From NCBI GenBank assembly GCA_018060845.1, contig JAGOVG010000001.1, positions 86,070 to 150,069 of the forward strand: 64,000 nt of DNA, given 5' to 3'. Positions 35,535 through 64,000 of this stretch are shown here, one piece after another. Both the position numbers and the translations under genes were made by a program. The stretch is from Candidatus Woesebacteria bacterium. Lineage in GTDB: Bacteria > Patescibacteriota > Microgenomatia > UBA1400 > UBA12108. Each line of letters begins with the position of its first letter. The stretch's first letter is position 1. The notes under the pieces are model-generated. The model did no database searches. It saw nothing but the letters and a program-made list of their open reading frames with translations, and was not told where the DNA came from.

Positions 35535-35720
35535 TGTTTTGGTTTATCGGTTCAATAGAATTTTTAAGACAATTTCTTTAACACTTCATTTGGTTTTCCA
35601 GATATGTAGATTGTGTCGGCAGGGTTGATGCCGAGATTCGTTTGTATAGATATGTTTGGAAATATTGTTGATCTGGTGATTTGGTTGTAGTCCGAAAAGG
35701 AATTGTCCAGCGACGAATGA

Positions 35721-36470: not shown

Positions 36471-36476
36471 CTGGAT

Positions 36477-37328: not shown

Positions 37329-37335
37329 GAATTAA

Positions 37336-37731: not shown

Positions 37732-37791
37732 GCACGCGATTTTAGATTAATCTGGATAAGTAATATACTTGTTGTGTATAATTTGCACAGT

Positions 37792-38882: not shown

Positions 38883-39187
38883 ATATTTTTCTCCTTGGTT
38901 AGATTATATTTTTTATTAGCTTTGCGGCTGGGAATAATTGTCTTTAGAAAGCGTTTTTCTGAGTCTTCGACGTATGGAACTAGATAGGTGTAGTTACGAA
39001 TAGAGACTATGAGCATTTGTTGATGTGGATATTTTGATTGATTGGGGTGTGGACCATCAAAGAGGACTCTTTTTGCTTTAACTGCTCTGACTACTTGATC
39101 AAAAGTAATTTTCCGCAAAGCTTTTAATGTGCTATTTTTATCTGGATCCCACTCGAATGGCTTGTCCATACTTGGATAATATGACAA
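38879..39187 (-). CDS. brnT: BrnT-type toxin
   Basis: FEWDPDKNSTLKALRKITFDQVVRAV, the BrnT family N-terminal signature. Confidence 0.6.
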   Translation of the reverse strand: MSYYPSMDKPFEWDPDKNSTLKALRKITFDQVVRAVKAKRVLFDGPHPNQSKYPHQQMLIVSIRNYTYLVPYVEDSEKRFLKTIIPSRKANKKYNLTKEKNI

Positions 39188-39204
39188 ATGATATACAATG
39201 TCAA

Positions 39205-40383: not shown

Positions 40384-40472
40384 AGTATTTATTTTATGTT
40401 ATCCACATATGTTTGTGGTTATCAACATAGTTGTCCACATATTCTATCTGTATTATTGAATATGTTAAACTG

Positions 40473-41240
40473 ATGTTCACTATGGTGAACAGGTCATTAC
40501 TCAGAATAATTAAGCAGATGGGGCTGACAAGTAAACATGCTTTGATATATGAGATCCTCAATAAGAAGCCTGCCACTACCCCACTACAATTATCACGTGA
40601 AACTAAGTTGAATAGATCGTCGCTCTACCGCTATCTCGAAGAACTGAGAGAGAGAGGGTTAGTTGAGCTAATTTTAGGTGACAAGACGAGCAAATACCGG
40701 ACAAGTCCAGATGGATTTGACCGATACCTCGCAAGCGAAGAGCTGCGAGTCACAAGCCTGAAGAACGAGATCCCCGCCCTCCTGCGAGCGCTGCCAAAAA
40801 ATGAAGGTGGAGAGCGGTCTGAAATAAAGTACTTTCAAGGTAAAGATGGGCTTAAACAAATGCTGTGGAATGTGGTCTCTAGTGGGCACGACTTCGTCGG
40901 CTTAGGATATGAGGATTGGAATACCAGTGTAGGTAAAACTTTTGCTGAGAGATTGCGCGTAAAGAATATAGAAACTGGGGCAAGATCCCGAGAAATAACA
41001 AATGATAAAGATGATGATTATGAATATACGACTCTTGGAGAGAAGTATCATAAGGTTTATGAACACCGCGGAATCAACGCAACCGTCCTAGAGATCAAAC
41101 ACGACACGTATATTTATGGCGAAGTTTTTTCCTATTACTACCACTATCAGGGCGAGCACTTTGGCGTCGAGATACATAACAGAGAGATTGCTAGGACTGA
41201 GAGACAGATGTTTGAAATTTTGTGGAAAATAGCAAAATAG
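40473..41240 (+). CDS. TrmB-family transcriptional regulator (paralog 4)
   Basis: HTH MGLTSKHALIYEILNKKPATTPLQLSRETKLNRSSLYRYLEELRERGLV. The C-terminal domain is similar to the other three paralogs (..FGVEIHNREIARTERQMFEILW). Start uncertain. Confidence 0.6.
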   Translation: MFTMVNRSLLRIIKQMGLTSKHALIYEILNKKPATTPLQLSRETKLNRSSLYRYLEELRERGLVELILGDKTSKYRTSPDGFDRYLASEELRVTSLKNEIPALLRALPKNEGGERSEIKYFQGKDGLKQMLWNVVSSGHDFVGLGYEDWNTSVGKTFAERLRVKNIETGARSREITNDKDDDYEYTTLGEKYHKVYEHRGINATVLEIKHDTYIYGEVFSYYYHYQGEHFGVEIHNREIARTERQMFEILWKIAK

Positions 41241-50425: not shown

Positions 50426-51772
50426 ATGGATGCTACCTCAGTATGGAGAGCGGTATTAACCGATCTAGAACTTACATTGTCTAAGACGTATTTTGCTGGA
50501 TATATCAAACCTTTATCGCTCATCTCATTAGAACAAGAGGGTGGTCGCGTAACCGCAACCATATTGTCTCCCACCAAATACCACGTCCAGATGATGGATG
50601 AAAAATATGGGAAGCACGTAATAAAGGCGATTGAGAGAGTAGTTAACAGCCCATGCACCATTAAGTACGAAATAGGCAAGGAGGGGGGAATGGAGCAGAC
50701 TGGCTCTATGCCACTATTTCAGCCGGCTCCCAAAGTAAGTGCTCCGATAGGGAGCGGATCACACAACCTTAATCCAAGGTTAACTTTTGACACTTATATT
50801 GTTGGTTCTTCGAACAACTTTGCATATGCTGCAGCACAAGGAGCGGCCAAGAGTCCTGGAACGAGATATAACCCTTTGTTTATTTATGGCGGAGTAGGAC
50901 TTGGTAAGACCCACCTTATGCATGCCATAGGTCACGCCGTGTACGCAGACCATCCAGACTGGGACATTATGTATATCTCGGCAGAGACCTTTGGGAGCGA
51001 TTTGATTGCGAGCTTACAGAACAAGAGAACGGCGGCGTTTAAAAAGAAGTATCGTGCGCCAAACCTACTACTAATCGATGACATTCAGTTTATTGCCGGC
51101 AAAGAATATATACAAGAAGAGTTTTTTCACACCTTTAACGAGTTATATATGTCTCAAAGACAGATTGTCCTCACATCTGACAGACCCCCACAAGAGATCT
51201 CACGACTAGAAGAGCGGCTCTCCTCCCGATTTATGGGTGGACTCATGGTGGATGTACAAAGCCCTGACTTTGAGACAAGAACTGCGATTTTGACGCAAAA
51301 ATGTATTGTGCTAGGACTCGAGGTTTCGCCAGACCTAATTGCACTAGTTGCCGAGAAGGCGGTGGGTAATATCCGTGAGCTAGAGGGAACTCTCCAAGCA
51401 ATAATTGCCAAGTCACATTCAGAAAAGAGACCAATAGATCAAGACCTGATTAGAGAAAACTTTGGAGCATCGTCTGAGCGGCGAAATCACCGGATTAGGC
51501 CACAATCAGTAATAAATAAGACTGCTCAATATTTTAGTTACAAAGTAACAGAGTTAACGGGGGCGAGCCGCAAGGCACCGCTGACAGCGGCAAGGCACAC
51601 TGCGATGTATTTGTTATATGAAGAGTTGTCACTACCATACGTGCAAATAGGGGAGCTGTTTGGCGGGAGAGATCATACAACCATAATCCACGCGGTTGAA
51701 AAGATTAAAGAAGAGTTAAAAACTAATCCTCAACTCTCAAAGACTCTGGCAGACATAAGACATGATTTATGA
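50426..51772 (+). CDS. dnaA: Chromosomal replication initiator protein DnaA
   Basis: AAA+ Walker [14 protein letters not shown], Walker [11 protein letters not shown]-terminal DnaA-box-binding HTH ([11 protein letters not shown]). Confidence 0.93.
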
Positions 51773-51775
51773 GGC

Positions 51776-52010
51776 CCGCAAGTTATCCACATCAGTTGTG
51801 GATAAGTATGAGGAAAAGTAAGGGAAAAGATGAGGATAACTTGAGGATAATGGTGGATAAGTCGGTTATCAACAATAACCCTTTACTTATCCCCAAACCT
51901 ATCCGAGCGGTTATCCACACTACTAGCAGATAGGTATCCACTTATCCACTGACCCTACTATAATTACTAATTAATATTAAAGTGAATAGTCTATAGTACA
52001 TATAAGGGGA
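51776..52010. promoter_or_regulatory. oriC: DnaA-box cluster and AT-rich unwinding element between dnaA and dnaN
   Basis: TTATCCACA at 51784 and 51911. TGTGGATAA at 51797, forming a palindromic pair with the 51784 box. Near-consensus boxes TGGATAAG, TTATCCCCA, GTATCCACTTATCCACT. AT-rich stretch 51961-52005. Confidence 0.6.
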
Positions 52011-52013
52011 AAA

Positions 52014-53117
52014 ATGAAAATAGAAATCTTACAAGAAGAGTTATTAAAAGGCATGGCCGTTGTAATGAGAGCGGTTTCGAACCGTACCCAGCTACCAGTT
52101 TTATCTTCTATTAGGATTGAGGCTAAGCCAACGGAGATCGTTCTTTCGGCGACTGACCTAGAGATAGGGATCAGGTTAGTCATATCTGCAAAAGTTGAGG
52201 AAGTAGGAGTTTTTGCAGTACCTGCAAAAACCTTTAGCGAACTACTCTCTACTCTCTCGCCAGGCAAACTCTCGATGGAGCTAAAAGAGATGGTATTGAC
52301 TATAAAGTCAGGAAGTTTTAAGGGCAAGATAACGACTGTCGACGCATCCGAGTTTCCGGTGCTACCCACAATGAAAGAATCTTTGATTGAAATGTCTTCG
52401 AGTGAGTTATCTCAGGGTATTTTGAATGTGGGCTTTGCTAGCGCCAAGGATTCCCTACGTCCCGTCTTAACTGGCGTGCTTATGGAGGTCTCACAGAGTC
52501 TGCGATTGGTAGCGACCGATGGATTCCGCCTAGCGGTAGCTACGGTCAAAATAAAAGGCTCTACAGCGACCCAGGGACTATCACTACTAGTTCCGGCACG
52601 AGCACTTTTTGAGTGTGGCAAAATTATCAAAGAGGGAGTGATTAAAATAGGATACCTACCAGAATCTAAGCAGGTATTGTTTGAAGGGGAGCAGTTGTTG
52701 TTTATTACTCAGATAATAGAGGGCAACTTTCCTGACTACAATAAAATCTTGCCCAAAGAGTTTGTGGAGAGGATAACTCTATCCAGAGAAGAGCTTCTGG
52801 GTGCTGTAAAAACAGCGCTTGTTTTTGCGAGAGATAACTCAAATATGATGAAGTGGACGGTTACACGTGGCAAGCTATCGGTAGCTGCTAGCTCGACAGG
52901 AAGTGGGGAGGGCTCGATTGAGGTGGGAGCCAAGACGGAGGGTGAGGAATCGCTAGAGGTTATTTTTAACGCAAAGTATGTGATGGATTATCTACAGCTA
53001 TTGAGCACAGAGTCGATCTGGATTGGGCTTGGTGGTAAGCTGGCACCAGGAATGATTGCGGAGAGTGACGCGGGTCGCGAAAATACTTTTTATGTAGTGA
53101 TGCCGATAAATGCGTGA
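52014..53117 (+). CDS. dnaN: DNA polymerase III beta subunit (sliding clamp)
   Basis: 367 aa, three-domain clamp, MKIEILQEELLKG...VMPINA. Confidence 0.9.
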   Translation: MKIEILQEELLKGMAVVMRAVSNRTQLPVLSSIRIEAKPTEIVLSATDLEIGIRLVISAKVEEVGVFAVPAKTFSELLSTLSPGKLSMELKEMVLTIKSGSFKGKITTVDASEFPVLPTMKESLIEMSSSELSQGILNVGFASAKDSLRPVLTGVLMEVSQSLRLVATDGFRLAVATVKIKGSTATQGLSLLVPARALFECGKIIKEGVIKIGYLPESKQVLFEGEQLLFITQIIEGNFPDYNKILPKEFVERITLSREELLGAVKTALVFARDNSNMMKWTVTRGKLSVAASSTGSGEGSIEVGAKTEGEESLEVIFNAKYVMDYLQLLSTESIWIGLGGKLAPGMIAESDAGRENTFYVVMPINA

Positions 53118-53168: not shown

Positions 53169-55052
53169 TCAGATAGTTGGTTTATCAGGTGGAGTCGGTG
53201 GAGTATTGAGTTTTTGGGCGAGGGTAACCTGAGCTTGTTTGATTGCCTGAGCCTCGGCTTCTTCTTTTTTACGAAGAGTCTCTCTAGGATCGGTGGTAAT
53301 GAGCGCGTGTTCTTCGGGGGACGCGACGACTCGCATGGCAACGTGGTTTTGGCCGGCGAAGAATAGAGACTCCCCCACCTCGGCAGTGAGGAGTAGGTGA
53401 CGCTCACCCTGTGAGAGATAGAAGACGTTAGCTAGTTTTTCAATAGCACTAGTGCTTTGTTTCATTAAAACCTGAATACTGGCGTTACTAACAATAGCCT
53501 TCCCGTGATCGTCTTTTAAGAAGTCTTCGACATCTTGAGTAATGGTAGTTAGACCCAAGAAATATTTGCGAGCCCGTTTGGCAATGCCATAGAGGAAAGT
53601 GGCGGAGTCCTCGTTTTTCATAAGATACCAGGCTTCATCAACCACCAAGAGACGACGCTTTAAATCTCTTTTTACCTTGGTCCAGATATAGTCGAGAATA
53701 ATGAAGATGGCGGTAGGGCGGAGCTCATCCTGAAGGTTTTTAATACCAAAGACAGTTAGCTGTTTGCCAAAGTCCACATTACTTTTTTGGGAGAAAATAC
53801 CCTGAAAACTACCCTTAACATATTTTTCGAGGCGGTCGGCTAGGCCGCGAGCTACCGCTTCTTCCATTCCAACTAGAGCTTTATAGAGATCTTCCATCAG
53901 GGGTGGTTCATTTTTATGAGTAGCAGGATCACGATTTATGCCTTTCATTTGATAGGTCATGACAAGAGCGCGGTCGAGTAGGGCCTCTTCTTGGGCAGTC
54001 ACGTCGCCGAGCATGATTTTGAGTAGTGAGTGGAGCGAGATAATTTTCATAGCCAGTTCGTTTTCGTCAGGCTCGGCAAGTTGAGGGAGCTCAAAGGGGT
54101 TAATACGATTGGGGCTAGTAAAACTAAAGTCGATATAGGTACCGTTTACGGTCTGGGACATTTTACGGTACTCGTCTTCGGGGTCGATAATGATTACCTC
54201 GGTCTCAAATAGTAGTGAGCGGAGGATCTCTAGCTTGACCATGTAACTTTTACCAGAGCCAGACTTAGCAAAGACAACCATGTTGGCATTCTCGAGACTA
54301 AAACGGTCAAAAACCACAAGACTATCGTTGTGTTCGTTGATCCCGTACATAATGCCTTCGTTGGCGGTTAACTCACTGCTAGTAAATGGGAAGGTGGTCG
54401 CTAGGCTGGTCGTGTCCATGTTGCGGTTGATTTTGAGGAAGTCTTTACCCATAGGGAGAGTGGTTTTGAAGCCGTCTTCGATCTGGAGAGTGGCGGTCTT
54501 GGCTACGATAAGGAGAGCTCCTAGAGTTGATTTAATATGATTGGTAACTTTGTCGAGCGCGTCTTTTTTGTCGTCGCGAATAGTAATGTAGAGACCAAAC
54601 TGGAAGAAACGTTCGGCGCCTTTGGCGAGTTGTTCTTGGAGACTACGTGCATCTTCTAGTTTGACCTGGGTATCAATATTGATAATCTTGCCTCGTTGAA
54701 TATCACCTTGTAGCTCCGCCTCCATCTCGGCAATCTTGCGTCTTAGATCCTCAATAACCCCCTTGCCATCGACGGGGTAAATAAACATTGAAATGGAGAG
54801 GGAGTGGGGGAAGTTGATGAGGGGAGAGAGCCAGTTGGCGTTGACGAAGCGGGGGTAGCCGGCGACAAAGAGAGTGCGGTAGTAGGTGTCGTTAATCTTG
54901 ACGTCTGACCAGTCAACTTCGATTGCCTCTGGTGCAATTATATCTTTGACGTTGGTGGTGCCAGTTGAGAGGACTTGGACGGCGGCAGGAACTCCGGAAT
55001 TAGCGTCTTCGGTCGGTTTCTTTTTGCCAGCAAAAGGAAAGGGCAAGTTCAT
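53169..55052 (-). CDS. VirB4/TrsE-like type IV secretion (conjugal transfer) ATPase
   Basis: Walker A FAKSGSGKSY, Walker B LLVVDEAWYLM, IIIDPEDEY, Gram-positive VirB4-like architecture, 627 aa. Confidence 0.75.
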   Translation of the reverse strand: MNLPFPFAGKKKPTEDANSGVPAAVQVLSTGTTNVKDIIAPEAIEVDWSDVKINDTYYRTLFVAGYPRFVNANWLSPLINFPHSLSISMFIYPVDGKGVIEDLRRKIAEMEAELQGDIQRGKIINIDTQVKLEDARSLQEQLAKGAERFFQFGLYITIRDDKKDALDKVTNHIKSTLGALLIVAKTATLQIEDGFKTTLPMGKDFLKINRNMDTTSLATTFPFTSSELTANEGIMYGINEHNDSLVVFDRFSLENANMVVFAKSGSGKSYMVKLEILRSLLFETEVIIIDPEDEYRKMSQTVNGTYIDFSFTSPNRINPFELPQLAEPDENELAMKIISLHSLLKIMLGDVTAQEEALLDRALVMTYQMKGINRDPATHKNEPPLMEDLYKALVGMEEAVARGLADRLEKYVKGSFQGIFSQKSNVDFGKQLTVFGIKNLQDELRPTAIFIILDYIWTKVKRDLKRRLLVVDEAWYLMKNEDSATFLYGIAKRARKYFLGLTTITQDVEDFLKDDHGKAIVSNASIQVLMKQSTSAIEKLANVFYLSQGERHLLLTAEVGESLFFAGQNHVAMRVVASPEEHALITTDPRETLRKKEEAEAQAIKQAQVTLAQKLNTPPTPPDKPTI

Positions 55053-55221
55053 ATGGATTTAGTATAACGCATTAATTAGACTGAGTGTCGCGATTTTGCA
55101 GTCCTCACAGCTATCTGACGTATCAGAGGAGACGCTCCGGGCTGAAAATCATCGCCACTCAGTCTTTGTAAATAACTTTCTTAGCAATACTTAGAGAGAT
55201 GGCGGTAGTTATGTATGGCCA

Positions 55222-55266
55222 GGCCTGCGCTAAATTTTTCTTTGTGAAACTACGTCTACGCCGACA
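55222..55266. repeat. Conserved ~45-bp intergenic element, copy A (upstream of the VirB4-like gene)
   Basis: GGCCTGCGCTAAATTTTTCTTTGTGAAACTACGTCTACGCCGACAC is about 85 percent identical to copy B. Confidence 0.55.
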
Positions 55267-55274
55267 CACAAAAA

Positions 55275-55913
55275 CTATTTAGCAATATTTGGGGCGACGA
55301 CAGGTGTTTCGTAATCTGAGGCGGTCGTGAATTTTTGACCTTTAACGGTTGAATTATAGTAACCGTGGAAGAGTTTCATGAGGTTCTGGCTATTTAACTG
55401 CTGGGCGGTTAAACCAATCCTAGTTAACTGCTTGATAATATGGTCTCTTTTTGGCTCGAGGTCGGCCTTGGCGCGACTTAGGAGTTCTTCGGTTACCTCA
55501 ACTTTGCCTGACAGTGTGACCATTTGGTAGGAGACGATGATATAGAATTTTTTATCGAGCACATTTTGCTCTTGGATGGTGGTCTCGATAAAGTTCCTAT
55601 ACTGCGACATGCGGGTTTTCATGGTTTCGTCTTTGAGTTTCTTTTCCTGAGTAACCAGGAGCTCTAGGTAACTACTGATGTCTTTTTTCTCGGATTTGAT
55701 TACCATCTGGACGGGGAAGCTAAGTGAGTTGAGGAGGCCGGCATACGCGTAGATGGTCGCATCCTGTTCTTCTTCGGAGAGGAGACCAAAGTTGATGGCT
55801 GAAGTTTGGATTACGACGCTTATTAGGCCACCGCGGAGGACCACCACATCATCTTGAATGGTTTCGACCTCGAGATGATCTTGGGTTGTTGCGACGATGA
55901 TTGAGTCAGACAT
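55275..55913 (-). CDS. Hypothetical T4SS-associated protein
   Basis: 212-aa ORF between PrgI-like and VirB4-like genes. No recognised motif. Confidence 0.35.
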   Translation of the reverse strand: MSDSIIVATTQDHLEVETIQDDVVVLRGGLISVVIQTSAINFGLLSEEEQDATIYAYAGLLNSLSFPVQMVIKSEKKDISSYLELLVTQEKKLKDETMKTRMSQYRNFIETTIQEQNVLDKKFYIIVSYQMVTLSGKVEVTEELLSRAKADLEPKRDHIIKQLTRIGLTAQQLNSQNLMKLFHGYYNSTVKGQKFTTASDYETPVVAPNIAK

Positions 55914-56008
55914 CTTTTTAGTATATCAGCTTCGGTTCGGTGCGTTTCACGCGAAAAAGCGGTCTGACTGCGTCTGGTGTCGCAGCGACCTCGAGTTCGG
56001 CCTACCCG

Positions 56009-56053
56009 GCCTGCACTAAATTTTTCTTAGTGAAATCGCGCCTCGCCGGCCCT
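56009..56053. repeat. Conserved ~45-bp intergenic element, copy B (upstream of 55275..55913)
   Basis: GGCCTGCACTAAATTTTTCTTAGTGAAATCGCGCCTCGCCGGCCC. Confidence 0.55.
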
Positions 56054-56057
56054 GCTA

Positions 56058-57080
56058 TTATCCTGTGGCCTGTATCTCGAAAGGTTGGATAATAGTGTCG
56101 TTGATAACTAGTTGCTGAGCGGGGAAGGTGTGACCATCTGACTCGACTTCGAGGCGGTAGGTCCCAGGAGATAGAGGGGTGCTAGTCGCAAACTGGCCGA
56201 GTGCGTTGGTTTTCATGGCGCGGGCTGGGACACCAGTTGAATCTAGTACCTGAACTATCGCACCCTCGACCAACTTGCCTGCTGGGTCGGTTGTGATCCC
56301 AACAATAAGATTGGGTGAGCGAGGTGGGACGGGGAGATTAATTGATTTGAGTTTGGTGGTGGCTTTGGTTTGGGGAGCTGGTGTGGCTGCTATGGGCGCG
56401 GCAGAAAAGATGAGATTGTCTGGAATTGACGACTCTTGTGGTTTGTCTGACTTTACCACTGGTTTGTCGACGACGGTCGGCTGGACTGGGGGAATCACGA
56501 CAGGAGTAGCTTTGGTCGGGGGCGGGGCAACTGTGTCTTCTACTGCTTTGAGTTTGCGTACAGTGACACCAGGCTTGTCAAAAGTAATTTCTGGTTTAGG
56601 GGTCGAATTAACTGGGGCAGATGGCATAGTAGTAAAAATGGAATTAAGGGCTTTGAGTTGCGAATTTTCTCCTTCGCTATAATCGGAGGGTGCTATAGTA
56701 GTGGATTTGATTGTGGGAGCCTTGATGGTTTTGGTGACTGTGTTGGTTGGGGCTATCTGATGAGCCGTAAAGGTAAAAATGTTAGGGATTTTGTTAGTTT
56801 TTTTCCAGGTGAAACGAGTGGGTTTGTAGATAGCGTGTACAAAATTAATAATCCATTGATCGAGTGGGCGGTCTTCGATGGGGAAGAAAGCTAGGGCGAT
56901 ACCAAAAAAAACGGAGAGGAGAATCAGAGGTGCTTTAAAGATAAAGAGTAGGTTGCTACTGTAGAAAAGAAATGCGAGCACTAGTCCGGATGCTAGTTCG
57001 AGAAACTGTTTGAGAGTCATGTCTCCAACAAGACGGAACTGATACTGAGTGACGTTTTGGGGCACTGGATGCTGGTTCAT
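56058..57080 (-). CDS. PrgI-family (VirB3-like) membrane protein with C-terminal carboxypeptidase-regulatory-like beta domain
   Basis: N-terminus PVPQNVTQYQFRLVGDMTLKQFLEL plus two TM helices, typical of PrgI/VirB3 of Gram-positive T4SS. Pro/Thr-rich linker. C-terminal GAIVQVLDSTGVPA...GTYRLEV. Confidence 0.5.
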   Translation of the reverse strand: MNQHPVPQNVTQYQFRLVGDMTLKQFLELASGLVLAFLFYSSNLLFIFKAPLILLSVFFGIALAFFPIEDRPLDQWIINFVHAIYKPTRFTWKKTNKIPNIFTFTAHQIAPTNTVTKTIKAPTIKSTTIAPSDYSEGENSQLKALNSIFTTMPSAPVNSTPKPEITFDKPGVTVRKLKAVEDTVAPPPTKATPVVIPPVQPTVVDKPVVKSDKPQESSIPDNLIFSAAPIAATPAPQTKATTKLKSINLPVPPRSPNLIVGITTDPAGKLVEGAIVQVLDSTGVPARAMKTNALGQFATSTPLSPGTYRLEVESDGHTFPAQQLVINDTIIQPFEIQATG

Positions 57081-57125
57081 TAATACAGTATAAAGTACCG
57101 AGTAAAAAGTACCTAGTGTGCGAAG

Positions 57126-57731
57126 TTAGTTGGAGAAGGAGTAAGTGTGGCTATCTGGGTCTAGTCCATTTTCTTTGACCCAGTCCCTTAAAGAGTTGAT
57201 GATCTCGCTTCGTTCTTCGACCCCCTCTTTAAGAGTGATTTCGAATGCCATTGGGGATTTGTACATAACAGTAAAACCTGGTGCTTCGTAGGGTATTTTG
57301 GCGGCCAGAGGGTAATCGCGCGCAATCTCCTCTCCCACCTCTTGGGCGTGACGAGGATCGCTTTGTTGTGGTTTAACTGTATAGGTGAGAGATGCGATTG
57401 GATTATTTTGATAACTTATATTTAGTAAATACTGTGTGTTGATAAGGAGGTATTTTTTGGACTTAAGTATTACGCTACCATTCGATTTAAGAGATATATC
57501 CCAATCTTCTTCGGGAATGGAGTTCACTACGAGCTCGTCTGGGTTGATATCCTTATCAAACCTGAGTTGTATCTCGTCAAAATAATTAATAGAAGATCGA
57601 TCTTTGGGGGTGCTGTTTAGTAGAGATGGGGCGGGTGGGGTGGGGCGATAGAAAAGAGAAAATAGAAGTGTGGCTAGAGCTACAACACCAAGAGTAATTA
57701 GAGTTAATTTGTTGGTCAAAATTTTGTACAT
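57126..57731 (-). CDS. Membrane-anchored hypothetical protein (possible VirB8-like component)
   Basis: N-terminal TM helix plus about 170-aa periplasmic/extracellular domain. The VirB8 role is assigned from position only. Confidence 0.35.
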   Translation of the reverse strand: MYKILTNKLTLITLGVVALATLLFSLFYRPTPPAPSLLNSTPKDRSSINYFDEIQLRFDKDINPDELVVNSIPEEDWDISLKSNGSVILKSKKYLLINTQYLLNISYQNNPIASLTYTVKPQQSDPRHAQEVGEEIARDYPLAAKIPYEAPGFTVMYKSPMAFEITLKEGVEERSEIINSLRDWVKENGLDPDSHTYSFSN

Positions 57732-57745
57732 AGGTATATTCTAGC

Positions 57746-60592
57746 TTAGATTTTTTTTAGACACCCCGCGATTTTACTACTTAACCAAGTGCCGCTACCT
57801 GGGCCTCTTACAACGCCTGGACCTGCTCCGTTTGCATCGGATACTTGAGAGGTTGCACCACCATTCTTGATAAAGATTCCAGTGTGACCCCAAGTGCCAG
57901 TAGTATCGACAAAGAAGTCTCCTGGTGAGCAGCTGCCGACACCAAGAACAGGCTTATACCCGCTAGGAGGGTTAGATAATAGAGTTTTTGCATCTCCAAA
58001 GCCTGTGCCAGTGCCTCCGTTTGCAACATCGATCGCGACAATAAAGCCCACACACTGTAGGACACTATAGTTGGTGGCTGAATATTGTAGCGCTGCTAGG
58101 GAGCTCTGGGCCAATGTACTCGCCAACATACACTGCCAAGTAGACCCCTGAGCATTGCTAGCAGTTAATGGATTAATACTACATTTACTTAATATTTCGG
58201 CGATACAGGCTGCTGTTTGGATGCGAGAGTTGTTCTGACCTCCTCCCTCGCCTGAGTTACAGAGAATATTGCCGATAAATTCGCCCAGGCCTGAGTCTAA
58301 GTTTATACTAACATCGAGTCGAAAAGTGTTTTTTATGTTATTTTGAGTAAAACTGGTTATAAATGGCAAGCTCACACTTAGGACAAAGGCAACAAGCAAA
58401 TTGATGAATGCTCCAGAGATCAGTCCTGATACTGTAGTAAAAAATCCCAATATTGCCGCTGGAATACCAAGTAGTACTGCACCGATCGCAGCACCACCAA
58501 GTATTATGCTTTCACGAAAGTTGCTGTTTGATATAAACTCTTTTAGTAGCCCCCAACCTAGTTTGAATAGTTCAATGACTGTTTGAATAGCAAAAACCAC
58601 TGTTAATGCAATGCCCACACCCGACAGTGCAGAGAATAGTGCCAAGACAGTCTTTGACCCGGCGCGCGCTAGAGATCTCCCGCCCAATTTTAGTAGTAGT
58701 CTTGTGACAGTTCTTTTTACAGAAACTCCTGAATACTTAAAAACGGATGTAAGTCCGACCTTGGCTATCCCCCACTTGATTGCAGAACTCCAGGCTGCTT
58801 TGCGGATGTGTGCGAGAGCACCGTTATAGGTATATCCACCGAGCTCGTACTGTCTAAATGACCAGTTAACGAGAGAGCCAAAACCCGTACTAGTTTTTGT
58901 ACTAGATATTATGGATTTTACAGATGATTTTTTAAACTGTTTGAGCTGATCGGTAACCCATGGAAAAATCTTAAAAAGAGGGATCTTGGTGCCAGGAATA
59001 CTAAAATTAGTCGAAAACTCGTCCCACTTACTATATATAAACTCATGAAGTTTTTTGCCAGTAACAATGCTTTCAAAGTCAAACCACTTTTCCCAGCCCA
59101 ACCTCTGTGCCTCCGTTAATCCAGAGCGTAGTTCTAATACAAATCTTCCAAACTGAGTCCTTTTAAGTAGACGAGCTTGTTTTGGGGTTAGGTTCTTATA
59201 ATAATATTCGTAGTCGCTAAGCGATCTAATTTTTCTTATTTTTTGTATGTTGGGAGAAGGAGAATTTAACTCATGTTCTTCGAGTTGTTTGAGAGTGGTG
59301 AGTCTGCTATTACCACTTAGGTTGTTGGCTTGGTTATATTCGTTAATGAGCGAATTAGTCTCAAAACCTAGTTTTAGCTTTGATTTAAATGAATAAAATG
59401 GGTTTATTCCTAGTTTAATTAGTTTTAACTCAGCTCTAGTTAGTGCGTGACCGTTGACCAATAGAGACATCTCATTCTGTCTATATTCAATTACTGAATC
59501 GAGGCCTGTCTCTCTTAAGCTTTTTTTAATTAACAATAAAGTAGCAGCGTCTAGATTTTTTAACCCAAGTTTTTTTGAGACTTTTTTTGATGCCAGTATT
59601 AGTAGTTGGTCTGATGTAAGTTGTTGGGCAGAGGACATCGTGATCTCTGTAAGAATGCTCTCAGAGATAAGATCTCGTTCTTTTTGGCTAAGGTTGGGTG
59701 GGAGCGCTGACTTGATTTCTGATAGGAGAGCTTGTTGTCCAGGGATAAAATCGGTACTACTAGTGGATGCTGCAACCTGAGCTCTTTTATACTCAGAGAG
59801 GGGGGTAGAACTGTTGTCAAAGTATCCTACCTTAATCCTGTTAACATAATTTCTGACTAGTGTTCCGGCTTGTCTGTCATTAATAAAATTGAGAAGGCCC
59901 GATGCATCTGGATTTTCTTCTTTGATTATCTTGAATAGTTCCTTAGTAACTGCAAAGTCCCTTCTTTCGTCACTATCACCAACCGAACCGGCTGAGTACA
60001 GCCTATCAAAATTTTTACAGATGATTTGAGCAAGCAAAGTTTTCGTTAGATTGTGTTGATTTTGATCAAGGCCATTGGGAACTAGTGTGCTTAGAACATT
60101 ACCAGGTACACCAGATTGTGAATACCGAAGTAATTTAAAATAGAGCCGATTATACTCATCGAACGCCTTGCCGGTATCAAATCTAGAAGGTTGAGCTGAA
60201 TTTATTGACTGCTGTTGCTTGCGATAGGTTTCGAGGTTGCTAATCCTGGTTGCGTTGAGTAGTTTATGTGGATCAGCAATGCGGTTCGAGTATACTAGCT
60301 GTGCATATCTGGCAAACTCAGCAAAACTGTTAATTGATAATAATACTCTTTTATCTTTTGTTAGGAGATTTTCTGTTGAATCTAAATATTCAACTACCAT
60401 TTTTTTGGCTTCGTCGAGAGAGATATACTCTGGGCTTTGAGTAGAGGATGGCAGCTCGACCCCTCTACTACCAGCTGCAATCCTGCCTTGTGTTTCTAGT
60501 CCTGGTAGTAGGTAGTTTTCGATTAGATAGCGATCACAACCACCGTTTATTCGATAATAGCTAGTTTGGTTGAAGAGACTAGGGTTTGCCAT
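57746..60592 (-). CDS. Large T4SS-associated protein: N-terminal soluble domain, VirB6-like multi-TM region, C-terminal CHAP peptidoglycan hydrolase domain
   Basis: 948 aa. Cluster of 5-6 TM helices at aa 640-760. C-terminal CHAP-like Cys/His (LQCVGFIVAID ... GDFFVDTTGTWGHTGIFIKN). Confidence 0.55.
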   Translation of the reverse strand: MANPSLFNQTSYYRINGGCDRYLIENYLLPGLETQGRIAAGSRGVELPSSTQSPEYISLDEAKKMVVEYLDSTENLLTKDKRVLLSINSFAEFARYAQLVYSNRIADPHKLLNATRISNLETYRKQQQSINSAQPSRFDTGKAFDEYNRLYFKLLRYSQSGVPGNVLSTLVPNGLDQNQHNLTKTLLAQIICKNFDRLYSAGSVGDSDERRDFAVTKELFKIIKEENPDASGLLNFINDRQAGTLVRNYVNRIKVGYFDNSSTPLSEYKRAQVAASTSSTDFIPGQQALLSEIKSALPPNLSQKERDLISESILTEITMSSAQQLTSDQLLILASKKVSKKLGLKNLDAATLLLIKKSLRETGLDSVIEYRQNEMSLLVNGHALTRAELKLIKLGINPFYSFKSKLKLGFETNSLINEYNQANNLSGNSRLTTLKQLEEHELNSPSPNIQKIRKIRSLSDYEYYYKNLTPKQARLLKRTQFGRFVLELRSGLTEAQRLGWEKWFDFESIVTGKKLHEFIYSKWDEFSTNFSIPGTKIPLFKIFPWVTDQLKQFKKSSVKSIISSTKTSTGFGSLVNWSFRQYELGGYTYNGALAHIRKAAWSSAIKWGIAKVGLTSVFKYSGVSVKRTVTRLLLKLGGRSLARAGSKTVLALFSALSGVGIALTVVFAIQTVIELFKLGWGLLKEFISNSNFRESIILGGAAIGAVLLGIPAAILGFFTTVSGLISGAFINLLVAFVLSVSLPFITSFTQNNIKNTFRLDVSINLDSGLGEFIGNILCNSGEGGGQNNSRIQTAACIAEILSKCSINPLTASNAQGSTWQCMLASTLAQSSLAALQYSATNYSVLQCVGFIVAIDVANGGTGTGFGDAKTLLSNPPSGYKPVLGVGSCSPGDFFVDTTGTWGHTGIFIKNGGATSQVSDANGAGPGVVRGPGSGTWLSSKIAGCLKKI

Positions 60593-60640
60593 ATCATTTA
60601 TTTTAGCATTGAAATTTGTCTGGTGTGGTAAAATTGTGAT

Positions 60641-63600
60641 ATGCCACCAAGCCCAGAAAAAACACTAGTTAGACCTACTGAAAAAAGGATTGCTGATTCT
60701 GTTGTTGGCCAGCCAAAAAAAGAAGCAGAGAATGCAATTATCGAGTTTTTTAAGAAACTGATTACCCAAGGTGATCTAGAACAGAGCACCAAGGCACTAG
60801 CCGAGCTAGAGAAGAAGACCAAATGGGATGAAGGTGATTTAAAGCTAATCAGTGGTCTGCGAAAAAGAGTGGTAGAACGAAAAGCAGTAATTGATGATGC
60901 GGTAGGGAAGATTTTTGAAAAGGCAAAGGGTGGAGCTGCTGACGTGAGACTAGCCAAGCAAGAGGCTGCTAAACTCTTAAAAGAGCACGGTCAAGATCTA
61001 GCGTTTGCTCGATCTCCAGACGAACGAAAAAAACTTAAGGCATTTGTAGAGCAATCGATACATGTATTTGGGCAAATAGAACGAGGTCCGGTTAAGCTAG
61101 ACGACGCTAACTCACTAGAGTATGCAAAGGTCGTGGTTACTGCCAAGAGGTACGAGAATATGGGTGTTGATAGAGAAGAGTTTGAAGTAAGAGCAGAGCA
61201 GCTACAAAGCACTATCGAGAGAGAAACTACTATAGTAAGCATGCATACAATAATGGCGGGTGCACCTAACGCAAATCCCAGGAATCAGGCTAAACATGAT
61301 AGAGAGAAAAGAGAAAAGGTTACCCTTAAAGACATAGGGTTGCGTGGAACAGATGAGATAGATAATAGACGAAAATCTTTTAGAGCTGAGGCGTTGAGAC
61401 TTAGGGTTAGGAATACGATGACGAACAGAATAGATGAGTTTTATGGAGATGGAGCCAACGACCCCAAAGACTCAGATTATTGGAACAGGATAGAAGAGCG
61501 CGTTGAGGCTATAACTAAGAAAAGCCAAACTGGATATGATGTACCAATTGACGAGCAAAAAGAGCAGTTGAGAGCAGTCGCTGAATGGATAAGAGAGGCT
61601 CGTAAACCGATGGCAAAGGTAAAAGAAAGAGCGATTTTAGAGAATATAGACCAAAATTTGTTGGCAAATACACCAAGAGCTAAGAGTAAGATTAAAGAGA
61701 GAGGGGTACTACTCGAATCGTTGAAAGGTAGTGCAAGAGAGCGAGTATTAGCAGCTGTGAGTTATGTTGAGATATCAACCGATCCAGCTACTGCTGCCAG
61801 AGGCGTCGAACTAATCGCTGAAGCACTGGAGCCTGGTTCGAGAACTGGTACTCACCCAATCATTTTTAATGAAGCGGCGCGGATATATGGCAACCTAAGG
61901 AACTGGGATCAGATAAACGGCGAGTTTGAACAAGCTATATTTAACACTCAGCGCAGCGTAGAGACAAAACTACTTAATCTTCATAGTGGTTCAGAAAAGT
62001 TGTTGCTTGAGCAATATGGGATTGACGCTAAATATACGATGACTGACGCACAGTGGGGTCTCATGCATGGACTAGTAGCGCCTGGTATGGATAATGCTGA
62101 AGGCAAGTTAAACATGACTCCGAGAGGTAAAGAAAAGATCGAATTTATCCGTGCCAATTATTCTAGACAAGAAGAATATATAGATAACACGGGAGCTGTT
62201 GTAAAGAAATACTTGGACAATGATATGTATTCGGAATATGAGCGTATGAAAAGAGATGGTCAAATGCCAAGCAGTGTCAAGGATAGGATGAATCAGCGTG
62301 GAATGATGGCACAGATGTTTGACATACAGTATGAAGAGTTAATCGCCCGCAAAACCCCACCAGATGTGGCGGAGCGGATAATGCAGGGTAAGATCCACGA
62401 ACGAATAGAGTCGTTAGTTTTTCAGATAATGCGTACTCAAGACGGGTCTCGTGAGGCAGTGAACCAAATGTCTTCATGGGAACTATTTGAATTATTTGGA
62501 CACCGTTTTGTCGGCTCTGATGCCCGAGACCTCTGGCAGGCGCGACTAGGGTTGTACGATGTGTCCGTCTATGCAGGTAGCGCAGAGTCGATTGAGGATT
62601 GGTCAAAAATTGCCTCATTTATGCCAAAGGAGTTTTTGTGGATGGTGTTTGATGAGGATACAATTAAAAATGTTATTCAGTTCCAAGTTGAAAATCCGTC
62701 GACTGGTGTCAAAGAGCTCAAATCAGTTTCTCTAAGTATGAAGGGGATGTTGAGTGCATTAGAAATGAAGGTGCCAGGAACAGATAAGAGTGCACGCGAA
62801 ATCTGGATGGGTGAGATACTGGGATCGGATGATATGAGTAAGATTGATCGGAATAAGAGACGTTTTTTTGCTTTTGCACTGGGACAGCAGATGGGGGTAG
62901 AGTTTGAGATGGTGGGCGACAAATTTCAGGTTAAGAACAACCCCGCTAATAATGAGCGCGCGAGGATTGGAATAGAGCAGGGTAAAGAAATAATGATCTT
63001 AAATATGGTAGGACTAGACAGTAATGGAGAAGTAGTTAAGATTGACTACTTTAAGAACCTGACCAGCGGAGATGAAGTAAAGGCGACAAGAATGCTAGCT
63101 GATTTTGAAAAGAACGACATCTGGGGTCAGTATGGTTGGTATGTTAATAACGCTCTCATGTTTAATCATCTAACTCTTAATTCGGTTGAGTTAGAGCGTG
63201 GTGGCAACTCCAAGGGGATGTGGAAATATATGCCCAATGTGCTACGCAAGTTACATGGGGCGGCAATGAAACATTATTTTAATCAGAAAGACATGGGGAT
63301 GGTGCATGCGCGCGAGATGGTGGATTCTTATTGGAGGTCTTTTGTCGCCTGGAAATTGAGGAGTGGTGTATTTTCGGGGAACGAGAATTCTGTTGGCGAC
63401 ATTAAGGAGGCGGTTAAAAGAGGAGGAGTGGGTATAGCGGGAGGAGTAAAGTGGTCAAGAAAACATCGCGAGGGAATTTTGGCTGGAGTTGGGATAGGTG
63501 AAGTAGAAGAAGTTGGTTTTGATCAGCTCTACTACGAAGTAGCTTTTTCTGAAGACCTACAAAATAATGAAGGTGTTAGTGGTTCTTTGAGAAGCATAGA

Positions 63601-64000
63601 GGATGTTAGAAATCTCGCTACGGCTGAGGGTATTAAAACCGATGCTTATAAACGAATTGTAGAGAAATGGAAAAAGTTTGATACGACTGGAGCATTTAAC
63701 TGGGGGCCGCTACTAGAGGCCATGGGAATCACGAGTCTTCCGACAGTTACAGGAGAGAGTGGCCTCAGGTTATTTTTGCAGAACTACGATAAATATAAAC
63801 TAATGAACTGGAAGGGTGTGCAACATAGTGATTGGCGCGATTTTATTAAATATACCGGCAAATCTAACGAAACATTTAACAACCTTATTCCTGTTACTGA
63901 GCATCCCGGTAGTGATGAGTTAATATCCAAGATCGCTCGACATATTGAAGGATACTTGGGCATAAAAGGAAAGGAAGCCTTTGCTACCAAATATGCCTCT
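60641..64000 (+). CDS. Giant hypothetical protein (N-terminal 1120 aa; ORF runs off the window end)
   Basis: Continuous open frame from ATG 60641 to the window edge, translated manually with no stops. Lys/Glu-rich and helical, with no Walker or relaxase motifs. Divergent from the VirB6-CHAP gene. Confidence 0.5.
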   Translation, partial: MPPSPEKTLVRPTEKRIADSVVGQPKKEAENAIIEFFKKLITQGDLEQSTKALAELEKKTKWDEGDLKLISGLRKRVVERKAVIDDAVGKIFEKAKGGAADVRLAKQEAAKLLKEHGQDLAFARSPDERKKLKAFVEQSIHVFGQIERGPVKLDDANSLEYAKVVVTAKRYENMGVDREEFEVRAEQLQSTIERETTIVSMHTIMAGAPNANPRNQAKHDREKREKVTLKDIGLRGTDEIDNRRKSFRAEALRLRVRNTMTNRIDEFYGDGANDPKDSDYWNRIEERVEAITKKSQTGYDVPIDEQKEQLRAVAEWIREARKPMAKVKERAILENIDQNLLANTPRAKSKIKERGVLLESLKGSARERVLAAVSYVEISTDPATAARGVELIAEALEPGSRTGTHPIIFNEAARIYGNLRNWDQINGEFEQAIFNTQRSVETKLLNLHSGSEKLLLEQYGIDAKYTMTDAQWGLMHGLVAPGMDNAEGKLNMTPRGKEKIEFIRANYSRQEEYIDNTGAVVKKYLDNDMYSEYERMKRDGQMPSSVKDRMNQRGMMAQMFDIQYEELIARKTPPDVAERIMQGKIHERIESLVFQIMRTQDGSREAVNQMSSWELFELFGHRFVGSDARDLWQARLGLYDVSVYAGSAESIEDWSKIASFMPKEFLWMVFDEDTIKNVIQFQVENPSTGVKELKSVSLSMKGMLSALEMKVPGTDKSAREIWMGEILGSDDMSKIDRNKRRFFAFALGQQMGVEFEMVGDKFQVKNNPANNERARIGIEQGKEIMILNMVGLDSNGEVVKIDYFKNLTSGDEVKATRMLADFEKNDIWGQYGWYVNNALMFNHLTLNSVELERGGNSKGMWKYMPNVLRKLHGAAMKHYFNQKDMGMVHAREMVDSYWRSFVAWKLRSGVFSGNENSVGDIKEAVKRGGVGIAGGVKWSRKHREGILAGVGIGEVEEVGFDQLYYEVAFSEDLQNNEGVSGSLRSIEDVRNLATAEGIKTDAYKRIVEKWKKFDTTGAFNWGPLLEAMGITSLPTVTGESGLRLFLQNYDKYKLMNWKGVQHSDWRDFIKYTGKSNETFNNLIPVTEHPGSDELISKIARHIEGYLGIKGKEAFATKYAS

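What the first reader, a model, noticed from the sequence alone, without database searches (positions are those of the whole stretch)
53169..64000. Gram-positive-style type IV secretion-like cluster with unusual fusion proteins
The cluster has a VirB4-like ATPase, a PrgI/VirB3-like protein with an extra C-terminal beta domain, and two small unknown proteins. It also has a 948-aa protein combining a VirB6-like TM bundle with a C-terminal CHAP hydrolase, and a divergently transcribed ORF of more than 1100 aa. It sits immediately next to dnaN and oriC. No relaxase or coupling protein is visible in the window, so this may be a secretion or host-interaction system rather than a conjugation system. 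T4SS-like systems are known in Saccharibacteria, but most of the components here are uncharacterised.
Basis: partly seen in the sequence, partly recalled or inferred. Interest (0 to 1): 0.65.

Follow-up and report, generated by a model that had tools for sequence, protein, structure and literature searches.

The report
Woesebacteria chromosomal type IV secretion locus
This is the right-hand half of the chromosomal, non-conjugative type IV secretion/pilus system that was recently described across the ultra-small Patescibacteria (CPR) bacteria, here in a Woesebacteria genome next to dnaA/dnaN. The system itself is already known, but two of its parts (a cell-wall-cutting membrane protein and a hypervariable giant protein) do not appear in the three papers I read.

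Summary
The ORFs are real and at the stated coordinates. The window comes from a Candidatus Woesebacteria (Microgenomatia, CPR) contig, not from Saccharibacteria.

**What the genes are**
- 53169-55052 encodes an MPF-FATA-type VirB4 ATPase (NCBIfam CD1110, 402 bits against a cutoff of 325).
- The 212-aa "unknown" is TrsD, a homologue of the VirB4 N-domain.
- The 340-aa protein is PrgI/VirB3 plus a CarboxypepD_reg beta domain.
- The 201-aa protein is a membrane-anchored Ig-like (Big_5) protein.
- The divergent ORF is 1328 aa, soluble, and matches no known family.

**Extent and context**
- The cluster runs about 6.7 kb past the window end: a polytopic 523-aa VirB6 candidate, a 186-aa anchor protein, a 956-aa protein with a pilin-like C-terminus, and a VirB2-like pilin array.
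- This gene order recurs in about 20 metagenomic loci.
- No relaxase, coupling protein, integrase or nearby tRNA was found.

**Novelty**
All of this matches the Patescibacteria T4SS published in 2023-2025 (TrsD+VirB4, PrgI, pilin arrays, no relaxase, beside dnaA/dnaN), so it is a new member of a known kind. The most interesting residue is the giant opposite-strand ORF: it is always present, yet unalignable between loci whose VirB4 is about 85% identical.

The parts
53169..55052 (-). VirB4 ATPase (627 aa), motor domain. Walker A is read from the sequence as FAKSGSGKSY and Walker B as LLVVDEAW.
   Evidence: NCBIfam conju_CD1110 5.3e-120, 401.9 bits against cutoff 325, covering profile positions 180-733 of 752. 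Pfam P-loop_TraG 2.4e-28, AAA_10, CagE_TrbE_VirB. Best PDB match is 4AG5, the Thermoanaerobacter VirB4 C-terminal domain, 5e-44. 77-96% identical (BLAST) in the related loci where it is found; a more distant locus, L035, is 49%.
55275..55913 (-). TrsD-like protein (212 aa), a separately encoded homologue of the VirB4 N-terminal domain.
   Evidence: NCBIfam TrsD/TraD NF041427 5.7e-6 over positions 14-200 of 201. It also matches positions 3-171 of the CD1110 VirB4 profile at 2.2e-8. It is always a separate gene directly upstream of virB4 in related loci, 81-96% identical.
56058..57080 (-). PrgI/VirB3-like membrane protein (340 aa): hydrophobic block at 26-70, a Pro/Thr-rich linker, then a C-terminal CarboxypepD_reg beta-sandwich (259-318).
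   Evidence: Pfam PrgI 1e-6 (29.6 bits, gathering score 27) and CarboxypepD_reg 1.5e-7. Hydropathy. The same two-domain architecture occurs in L005 and L035.
57126..57731 (-). Bitopic protein (201 aa): N-terminal TM anchor (4-30), a Big_5 Ig-like domain, and an uncharacterised C-terminal part.
   Evidence: Big_5 scores 0.0077 in this protein, but matches 8 of the 19 scanned sequences (9 homologues of this protein plus 10 of the 186-aa protein), best 4.5e-7. TM anchor. No VirB8 hit. It shares only the TM anchor with the 186-aa protein.
57746..60592 (-). 948-aa protein: cytoplasmic all-helical domain (1 to about 640), about 3 TM helices (647-750), and an extracellular CHAP cysteine peptidase/amidase domain (about 790-948). 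It is a VirB1-type cell-wall hydrolase, not a VirB6.
60641..64000 (+). First 1119 codons of a 1328-aa soluble, highly charged giant protein, transcribed divergently from the 948-aa gene with a 48-bp spacer. It is the hypervariable component of the locus.
   Evidence: Full length from the contig. No TM. No Pfam, NCBIfam or PDB hit. An opposite-strand ORF of 1088-1328 aa follows the 523-aa protein's gene in every locus long enough to contain a full-length copy (21 ORFs over 1000 aa). These ORFs fall into 4 BLAST-unconnected groups with only weak profile-profile links between groups.
51783..51950 (.). Cluster of 10 DnaA boxes between dnaA and dnaN (context: putative oriC or DnaA-regulated region).
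   Evidence: There is no GC-skew inversion here.
50426..53117 (+). dnaA (50426-51772) and dnaN (52014-53117), the conserved left border of the T4SS locus.
   Evidence: Precomputed Pfam Bac_DnaA and DNA_pol3_beta. The same adjacency is found in L004 and L005.

Best explanation
The region is the dnaN-proximal half of the vertically inherited, chromosomal type IV secretion/pilus system of Patescibacteria, in its Microgenomatia (Woesebacteria) form.

**Complete locus (about 17-18 kb).** The gene order is:
1. In related loci, an ECF-type sigma factor.
2. An array of VirB2-like pilins.
3. A 956-aa secreted protein whose C-terminus is pilin-like.
4. A 186-aa bitopic protein.
5. A 523-aa polytopic protein, the VirB6 analogue by topology.
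6. The giant soluble protein, on the opposite strand.
7. The 948-aa CHAP protein.
8. The 201-aa Ig-like bitopic protein.
9. PrgI/VirB3 with the beta domain.
10. TrsD.
11. VirB4.
12. dnaN and dnaA on the opposite strand.

**Shown here**
- The identities of VirB4, TrsD, PrgI, the pilins and the CHAP domain.
- The predicted topologies.
- Conserved synteny.
- Absence of a relaxase, T4CP, integrase or nearby tRNA.

**Inferred mechanism**
- The split TrsD+VirB4 ATPase docks on PrgI/VirB3 and on the polytopic and bitopic membrane proteins.
- It powers assembly of a VirB2-type pilus, with the pilin-tailed 956-aa protein as a surface or tip component.
- The CHAP domain of the 948-aa protein is held at the machine by its TM helices and cytoplasmic domain. 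It cuts peptidoglycan peptide bonds locally, in its own wall and possibly in the host's, to let the apparatus through.
- With no DNA-processing genes, the machine most likely serves contact with a host cell and transfer of protein (or uptake of host material), not conjugation. This is what has been proposed for the essential Saccharibacteria system.
For: - **Origin.** The 948-aa protein is 100% identical to NCBI KBD69_00770 of a Candidatus Woesebacteria bacterium. The contig is JAHZTO010000034.1, 226.7 kb.
- **VirB4, TrsD, PrgI HMM hits.**; PDB 4AG5.
- **Rest of the locus.** T4SS_pilin PF18895 hits and the remaining genes just beyond the window.
- **Pilin-like C-terminus of the 956-aa protein.**
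- **CHAP.**
- **Synteny.** The same gene order occurs in L003-L005 and in about 20 of 30 metagenomic loci. dnaN/dnaA adjacency holds in all three loci that extend that far.
- **No mobile-element genes.** No relaxase, T4CP or integrase among the window's ORFs. No tRNA near the cluster. In related loci the far border is a sigma factor followed by mevalonate-pathway genes.
- **Literature.** The same system is described with TrsD+VirB4, PrgI, pilin arrays, no relaxase, and dnaA/dnaN proximity in Microgenomatia (PMC12102498). The homologous Saccharibacteria locus SEML1_0006-0019 is essential for epibiotic growth (PMC10633639; PMC12857230).
Against: - No phylogeny was made to place this VirB4 inside the published Patescibacteria clade.
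- The VirB6 role of the 523-aa protein rests on topology and position only. There is no Pfam or PDB similarity, even when each homologue is scanned separately.
- No VirB8 homologue was identified.
- The side of the membrane on which the PrgI C-terminal beta domain sits is unresolved. A two-TM hairpin would put it inside the cell, while the type of domain suggests outside.
- A T4CP could be encoded elsewhere in the genome; only about 71 kb of a 227-kb contig was seen. The paper reports that most T4CP homologues lie far from virB4.
- No experiment addresses function in any Microgenomatia member.
Confidence: 0.82

Rival explanations
1. It is an ordinary integrated conjugative element (ICE) or a remnant of one. 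In that case the T4SS transfers the element's DNA, and the relaxase and coupling protein simply lie outside the window.
For: The VirB4, TrsD and PrgI proteins belong to families that are typical of Gram-positive conjugative elements. In one distant relative (L035), a T4CP gene sits inside the locus next to the giant ORF. Only part of the contig was visible.
Against: - No relaxase, T4CP, integrase or flanking tRNA in 64 kb plus 6.7 kb.
- Fixed position between dnaN and housekeeping genes in several diverged genomes.
- GC content is similar to the surrounding sequence.
- Core genes diverge in step with the genomes.
- The published survey found a relaxase in only 103 of 3,035 genomes (PMC12102498).
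Confidence: 0.04
2. It is an import machine. Like ComB of Helicobacter or the archaeal Ced system, the VirB4-driven pilus would take up DNA or other host macromolecules to feed a cell that cannot make nucleotides.
For: - There is no export-type coupling protein or relaxase.
- VirB4 also shows a weak hit to the Ced DNA-import ATPase CedB, 3.9e-14 and far below cutoff.
- Nutrient or DNA uptake has been suggested for the Saccharibacteria T4SS (PMC11665869).
Against: - The best VirB4 matches are conjugative-type (CD1110, 5e-120), not CedB.
- No ComEC-like or Ced-like channel gene lies in the locus.
- The locus carries a soluble, hypervariable giant protein and a wall hydrolase. These fit outward action at least as well.
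- There is no direct evidence either way.
Confidence: 0.12
3. It is only a pilus and adhesion apparatus. The system would assemble VirB2-type pili carrying the 956-aa adhesin for host attachment and would translocate no substrate.
For: - A large pilin array and a pilin-tailed giant ectodomain protein are conserved.
- The surface-exposed parts evolve fast.
- There is no T4CP.
Against: This reading gives no role to the conserved, soluble, cytoplasmic giant protein or to the 640-aa cytoplasmic domain of the CHAP protein. Patescibacteria already use type IV pili for adhesion (PMC12857230).
Confidence: 0.1

Closest known systems
Patescibacteria-clade T4SS (Quinonero-Coronel et al. 2025, PMC12102498; Southlakia epibionticum SEML1_0006-0019, Wang et al. 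2023, PMC10633639)
   Same: - MPF-FATA-type VirB4 with a separate TrsD.
- An extended PrgI/VirB3.
- A VirB2-like pilin array.
- Several proteins of about 1000 aa with unknown function.
- A peptidoglycan hydrolase.
- No relaxase or T4CP at the locus.
- Chromosomal position next to dnaA/dnaN.
   Different: - In S. epibionticum the hydrolase is a separate lysozyme-type protein, SEML1_0006. Here it is a CHAP domain fused to about 3 TM helices and a 640-aa cytoplasmic domain.
- The paper reports VirB6 as scarce and VirB3 as rarely linked to virB4 in Microgenomatia. Here PrgI is linked, and a polytopic candidate is present.
- An opposite-strand hypervariable giant ORF and a pilin-tailed 956-aa protein are not mentioned in the parts of the three papers I read (PMC12102498, PMC10633639, PMC12857230).
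Gram-positive conjugative MPF-FATA T4SSs (pGO1/pSK41 Trs, pCF10 Prg, C. difficile CTn CD1110 family)
   Different: There is no relaxase, T4CP, oriT context or integrase. It has VirB2-like pilins, which Gram-positive systems lack. It sits at a fixed chromosomal site.
VirB1-like bifunctional hydrolases of monoderm T4SSs (PrgK of pCF10, TraG of pIP501, TrsG of pGO1); the domain layouts of these proteins are recalled from my own knowledge and from PMC12102498
   Same: A membrane-anchored protein that presents a CHAP domain outside the cell within a T4SS operon.
   Different: No SLT/lytic transglycosylase or LytM domain was detected. It has a very large (640 aa) cytoplasmic all-helical domain with no fold match, and three rather than one TM helix.
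VirB6/TrbL, including 'extended VirB6' proteins (PMC12857230)
   Same: The 948-aa protein combines TM helices with large hydrophilic domains. The 523-aa neighbour is polytopic (at least 6 hydrophobic segments).
   Different: The 948-aa protein has only about 3 TM helices, and neither protein shows any sequence similarity to VirB6/TrbL/PrgH.

Membership tests
Patescibacteria-clade chromosomal T4SS | VirB4 of the MPF-FATA lineage | tested here: met
   NCBIfam conju_CD1110 401.9 bits, above cutoff 325. Best PDB match is the Thermoanaerobacter VirB4 4AG5, 5e-44.
Patescibacteria-clade chromosomal T4SS | VirB4 branches inside the monophyletic Patescibacteria clade | not tested
   No reference set was available for a tree. 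Only indirect support: the source is Woesebacteria, and close homologues were found in metagenomic CPR-like loci.
Patescibacteria-clade chromosomal T4SS | TrsD homologue encoded next to virB4 | tested here: met
   NF041427 TrsD 5.7e-6, full length; the gene is directly upstream of virB4.
Patescibacteria-clade chromosomal T4SS | VirB3/PrgI component | tested here: met
   Pfam PrgI 29.6 bits, above gathering score 27.
Patescibacteria-clade chromosomal T4SS | Array of VirB2-like pilins near virB4 | tested here: met
   PF18895 hits at about 1e-8 on at least 3 tandem genes just beyond the window. Related loci carry 5-7 copies.
Patescibacteria-clade chromosomal T4SS | No relaxase or coupling protein at the locus; chromosomal site near dnaA/dnaN | tested here: met
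   dnaN/dnaA adjacency in L001, L004 and L005.
Patescibacteria-clade chromosomal T4SS | Required for epibiotic growth | not testable with these tools
   Shown only for S. epibionticum, by Tn-seq (PMC10633639).
Conjugative element (ICE or plasmid T4SS) | Relaxase, T4CP, and an integrase or att/tRNA boundary | tested here: not met
   None found in 64 kb plus 6.7 kb. The rest of the genome was not seen.
VirB6/TrbL (for the 948-aa protein) | Polytopic membrane protein with at least 5 TM helices and similarity to VirB6/TrbL/PrgH profiles | tested here: not met
   About 3 TM helices at 647-750. No Pfam or NCBIfam hit. The fold search finds only the CHAP domain.
VirB6/TrbL (for the 523-aa neighbour outside the window) | Polytopic topology plus profile similarity | tested here: inconclusive
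   At least 6 hydrophobic segments and a conserved position in the locus, but no Pfam or PDB hit for 20 homologues. No structure prediction was made.
CHAP domain (PF05257) peptidoglycan hydrolase | Papain-like fold with a conserved Cys-His catalytic pair | tested here: met
VirB8-like (for the 201-aa protein) | Bitopic protein with an NTF2-like periplasmic domain | tested here: inconclusive
   The bitopic topology is met. The domain detected is Big_5 Ig-like, not VirB8. No structure prediction was made.

The most novel reading that the evidence does not exclude
The giant soluble protein encoded on the opposite strand in the middle of the locus may be the system's cargo or its host-specificity determinant. 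It is 1328 aa here and 1088-1328 aa in every related locus that is long enough to contain a full-length copy.

- It is kept at a fixed position, size and orientation, but has diverged or been replaced beyond recognition between genomes whose VirB4, TrsD and main pilin are about 85% identical.
- It could be recruited through the equally fast-evolving cytoplasmic domain of the adjacent CHAP protein.
- In one distant lineage it lies next to a T4CP.

If this is correct, it would be the first candidate T4SS substrate in Patescibacteria.
Probability: 0.2. Interest if true: 0.7.

Novelty: new member of a known kind. Interest (0 to 1): 0.35.

Why it matters
The Patescibacteria T4SS is essential in the only species tested, and its function is still unknown. 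The published survey could not find VirB6 or VirB1, or a VirB3 linked to virB4, in most Microgenomatia.

This locus gives a full parts list for that class:
- PrgI fused to a beta domain.
- A CHAP hydrolase fused to TM helices and a large cytoplasmic domain.
- A polytopic VirB6 candidate.
- A pilin-tailed ectodomain protein of about 950 aa.
- A hypervariable giant protein, which is a concrete candidate for a substrate or specificity factor.

These are testable leads. They do not amount to a new kind of system.

Tried and rejected
- **AlphaFold2 of the 948-aa protein with 5 sequences.** The model was unusable (pLDDT 41). Repeating with 53 sequences worked.
- **Profile search with the word-indexed database.** It added no homologues.
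- **N-terminal domain of the 948-aa protein.** No convincing fold match in the PDB. In the BFVD viral library there was only a weak overall resemblance to phage tape-measure proteins (probability at most 0.5, TM about 0.07). This was not used as evidence.
- **afdb50 library.** Not available.
- **Giant proteins.** No Pfam, NCBIfam or PDB hits for 15 members or for a 12-sequence profile.
- **Shared C-terminal tail of the giant proteins.** By eye there appeared to be a Trp motif, a '...KY.xG' motif and a Gly/His end. It failed a leave-one-group-out HMM test, so it is not claimed.
- **Links between giant-protein groups.** Profile-profile links are weak: E 2.7e-5 with probability 75% for one pair, and E 4e-4 and 0.14 for two others. 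The single L035 giant gave E 0.12-0.6 against each group.
- **Homology between the 201-aa and 186-aa proteins.** Only the TM anchor aligns.
- **Promoter and terminator scans of the locus.** Not above chance.
- **The ICE reading.** Rejected for lack of any mobility gene and because the chromosomal site is fixed.
Full report
**Observation.**
- On the - strand: 53169-55052 (627 aa), 55275-55913 (212 aa), 56058-57080 (340 aa), 57126-57731 (201 aa) and 57746-60592 (948 aa).
- On the + strand: an ORF that starts at 60641 and runs off the window end.
- dnaA (50426-51772) and dnaN (52014-53117) are directly to the left.
- Ten DnaA boxes lie between dnaA and dnaN, at 51783-51950.

**Source.** The 948-aa protein is identical to a hypothetical protein of a Candidatus Woesebacteria bacterium. 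The contig is JAHZTO010000034.1, 226.7 kb. The organism is therefore a member of Microgenomatia (CPR/Patescibacteria), not Saccharibacteria.

**Identities of the window genes**
- *627-aa protein.* This is a genuine VirB4 of the Gram-positive/archaeal MPF-FATA type.
  - NCBIfam conju_CD1110 scores 5.3e-120, 402 bits against a curated cutoff of 325. Pfam also gives P-loop_TraG, AAA_10 and CagE_TrbE_VirB.
  - The best solved relative is the Thermoanaerobacter VirB4 C-terminal domain 4AG5.
  - It aligns only to positions 180-733 of the 752-position VirB4 profile.
- *212-aa protein.* The missing N-terminal part of VirB4 is encoded separately by this upstream gene. It matches the TrsD/TraD family over its full length and matches positions 3-171 of the same VirB4 profile. 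One of the 'two small unknown proteins' is therefore TrsD.
- *340-aa protein.* It has a PrgI (VirB3-like) N-terminus, above the Pfam gathering score, and a C-terminal CarboxypepD_reg beta-sandwich.
- *201-aa protein.* It has an N-terminal TM anchor and a Big_5 Ig-like domain. The Big_5 hit is weak here but matched 8 of the 19 scanned sequences (9 homologues of this protein plus 10 of the 186-aa protein), best 4.5e-7.

**The 948-aa protein**
- Hydropathy shows a single hydrophobic block at 647-750, equivalent to about three TM helices. Before it lie 646 residues without any TM segment. This pattern is conserved in 12 homologues.
- An exhaustive HMMER search found 155 cluster representatives.
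  - About 35 align over the full length.
  - Many others align only from about residue 590 onward, so the N-terminal domain diverges much faster than the C-terminal part.
- Of 46 distant relatives of the C-terminal domain, 42 hit Pfam CHAP, best 8.7e-13. C847, H903, D919 and N921 are nearly invariant in 53 sequences, and so are C778 and C796.
- AlphaFold2 with that alignment gave a usable model with mean pLDDT 78. Residues 10-490 are a confident all-helical domain, 790-948 is very confident, and the TM region has low confidence.
- The N-terminal domain has no convincing match.
- I conclude that this protein is a membrane-spanning VirB1-type wall hydrolase with a large cytoplasmic domain. The 'VirB6-like TM bundle' reading is not supported.

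**The cluster continues beyond the window.** The contig (L001, oriented so that the window's - strand is +) shows the following:
- The + strand ORF is 1328 aa in full.
- Beyond it lies a 523-aa protein with a signal peptide and at least six hydrophobic segments. By topology it is the better VirB6 candidate.
- Next come a 186-aa bitopic protein and a 956-aa secreted protein.
- The last 80 residues of the 956-aa protein form two TM helices that are homologous to the neighbouring pilins.
- Last are at least three tandem VirB2-like pilin genes (PF18895, about 1e-8).

**Conservation**
- Two genome loci, one more locus from a homologue and 30 metagenomic loci were mapped.
- About 20 of them show the same order: pilin array (5-7 copies), 956, 186, 523, giant ORF on the opposite strand, 948, 201, PrgI, TrsD, VirB4.
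- dnaN and dnaA follow wherever the contig reaches that far (L001, L004, L005).
- On the other side, relatives have an ECF-type sigma factor transcribed divergently from the pilin array, followed by mevalonate-pathway genes.
- The locus is therefore a fixed chromosomal feature bounded by housekeeping genes.
- No relaxase, T4CP or integrase occurs among the window's other ORFs (the remainder read). No tRNA is near the cluster.

**Rates of change.** These are median pairwise identities among five loci.

| Component | Median identity |
|---|---|
| VirB4 | 85% |
| TrsD | 84% |
| Main pilin | 85% |
| Second pilin | 67% |
| PrgI | 57% |
| 523-aa protein | 53% |
| 186-aa protein | 44% |
| 956-aa protein | 41% |
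| 201-aa protein | 32% |
| 948-aa protein | 27% |
| Giant ORF | essentially 0% (one pair 65%) |

**The giant ORF**
- The 23 giant ORFs collected, two of them cut by contig ends, are soluble and highly charged. Among full-length copies, 20 of 21 have no predicted TM segment. Full-length copies are 1088-1328 aa.
- They fall into four groups with no BLAST link between groups.
- Profile-profile comparison gives only weak, co-linear links.
- None has a Pfam, NCBIfam or PDB match.
- Within the closest clade the giant is better conserved than its neighbour: 91% against 74% for the 948-aa protein. The pattern therefore looks like episodic divergence or replacement rather than uniform drift.
- In the distant locus L035, a T4CP gene lies beside the giant ORF in place of the 948-aa and 201-aa genes.
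- These facts make the giant protein a candidate substrate or specificity factor. This is inference only.

**Comparison with what is known**
- Quinonero-Coronel et al. 2025 (PMC12102498) describe this system. Its features there are:
  - a monophyletic Patescibacteria VirB4 clade nested in MPF-FATA;
  - TrsD as the most frequent partner, plus PrgI/VirB3 and VirB2-like pilin arrays that are abundant in Microgenomatia;
  - almost no relaxases;
  - dnaA/dnaN close to virB4 in Microgenomatia and Paceibacteria.
- Wang et al. 2023 (PMC10633639) showed that the Saccharibacteria locus SEML1_0006-0019 is essential. It also lies near the start of the genome and contains proteins of about 1000-1100 aa with unknown function.
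- A 2025 review calls these systems newcomers to the T4SS superfamily (PMC12857230).
- The finding is therefore a new member of a known kind.
- Some details do not appear in the parts of those papers I read, and the 2025 paper reports VirB6 and VirB1 as scarce in Microgenomatia. These details are:
  - the CHAP/TM/cytoplasmic-domain fusion;
  - the linked PrgI/beta-domain fusion;
  - the polytopic 523-aa candidate;
  - the pilin-tailed 956-aa protein;
  - the hypervariable opposite-strand giant ORF.

**Mechanism: shown versus inferred**
- *Shown:* the component identities, predicted topologies, synteny, and absence of DNA-processing genes.
- *Inferred:*
  - TrsD+VirB4 energises pilus assembly and transport through a PrgI/523/186/201 membrane platform.
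  - The CHAP domain opens the peptidoglycan.
  - The 956-aa protein decorates the pilus.
  - The system acts at the contact with a host cell rather than in conjugation.
- *Rivals:* an ICE (very unlikely), an import machine, and an adhesion-only pilus. The last two cannot be excluded with sequence data.

**Caveat on oriC.** The DnaA-box cluster supports an origin between dnaA and dnaN. However, GC skew on the + strand is positive for genes of both orientations on both sides of it, and third-position skew is +0.2 to +0.38. The skew does not invert here. The published idea that origin proximity raises T4SS gene dosage should not be taken for granted in this genome.

Noticed in passing
window 1-64000, especially around 51783-51950: GC skew on the + strand does not invert at the dnaA-dnaN DnaA-box cluster. 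This includes third-codon-position skew of +0.2 to +0.38 for genes of both orientations. By skew, the whole window looks like a single replichore, and the T4SS genes on the - strand would be head-on to replication.
   Followed up: partly
L004:16096-19704: The VirB4 gene of a related genome carries a 529-aa intein inserted directly after the Walker A lysine (GSGK|C...VHN|S).
   Followed up: partly
L035:11286-17834: In a more distant locus, a 768-aa coupling protein (TrwB_AAD_bind, T4SS-DNA_transf, TraG-D_C) lies next to the giant ORF on the same strand, in place of the 948-aa and 201-aa genes.
   Followed up: partly
L017:3902-4438 (also L012, L014, L019, L020, L023): An ECF-type sigma-70 factor (177-184 aa) is transcribed divergently from the pilin array. 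It marks the far border of the locus and is a possible dedicated regulator. Mevalonate-pathway genes follow it.
   Followed up: partly
L004:13529-14094; L008:3489-4814; L010:831-2156; L030:4075-5400; L009:183-1493: Some versions of the locus carry insertions. L004 has a BrnT/BrnA-like toxin-antitoxin pair between the 201-aa gene and PrgI. In L008, L010, L030 and L009, a 436-441-aa ORF replaces the 186-aa gene (Pfam AAA_14+DUF4143 confirmed for L008 only). A similar 433-aa ATPase ORF (L018:8396-9697, also Pfam-confirmed) lies elsewhere in its locus, just upstream of the 948-aa homologue.
   Followed up: partly
window 40399-40439: A second small cluster of three DnaA boxes (one exact) lies just upstream of, and runs into the start of, a TrmB-family regulator gene (40431-41240).
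   Followed up: no
window 5562-11209: Two gene pairs that look paralogous (not tested): a large Thr/Gly/Cys-rich N-terminally anchored protein (836 and 774 aa) with no Pfam domain, each followed by a small N-terminally anchored protein (128 and 126 aa).
   Followed up: no
window 13520-16455: Three adjacent genes carry ATP-citrate-lyase-type domains (Citrate_synt, Ligase_CoA/Succ_CoA_lig, Citrate_bind, ATP-grasp). This may be unexpected in a metabolically reduced CPR genome.
   Followed up: no
window 1742-2593: A tRNA-Cys gene is followed directly by a free-standing LAGLIDADG homing-endonuclease ORF.
   Followed up: no
window 27800-41240: Four TrmB-family regulator genes are interspersed with MFS and EamA transporter genes and a putative BrnT/BrnA-like toxin-antitoxin pair (only a CopG-type antitoxin hit was obtained). 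GC content dips to 0.39 around 31-35 kb.
   Followed up: no
window 60593-60640: Only 48 bp separate the divergent start codons of the 948-aa gene and the giant ORF. Their promoters must therefore overlap or lie inside each other's coding sequence. The consensus scans were not above chance.
   Followed up: partly
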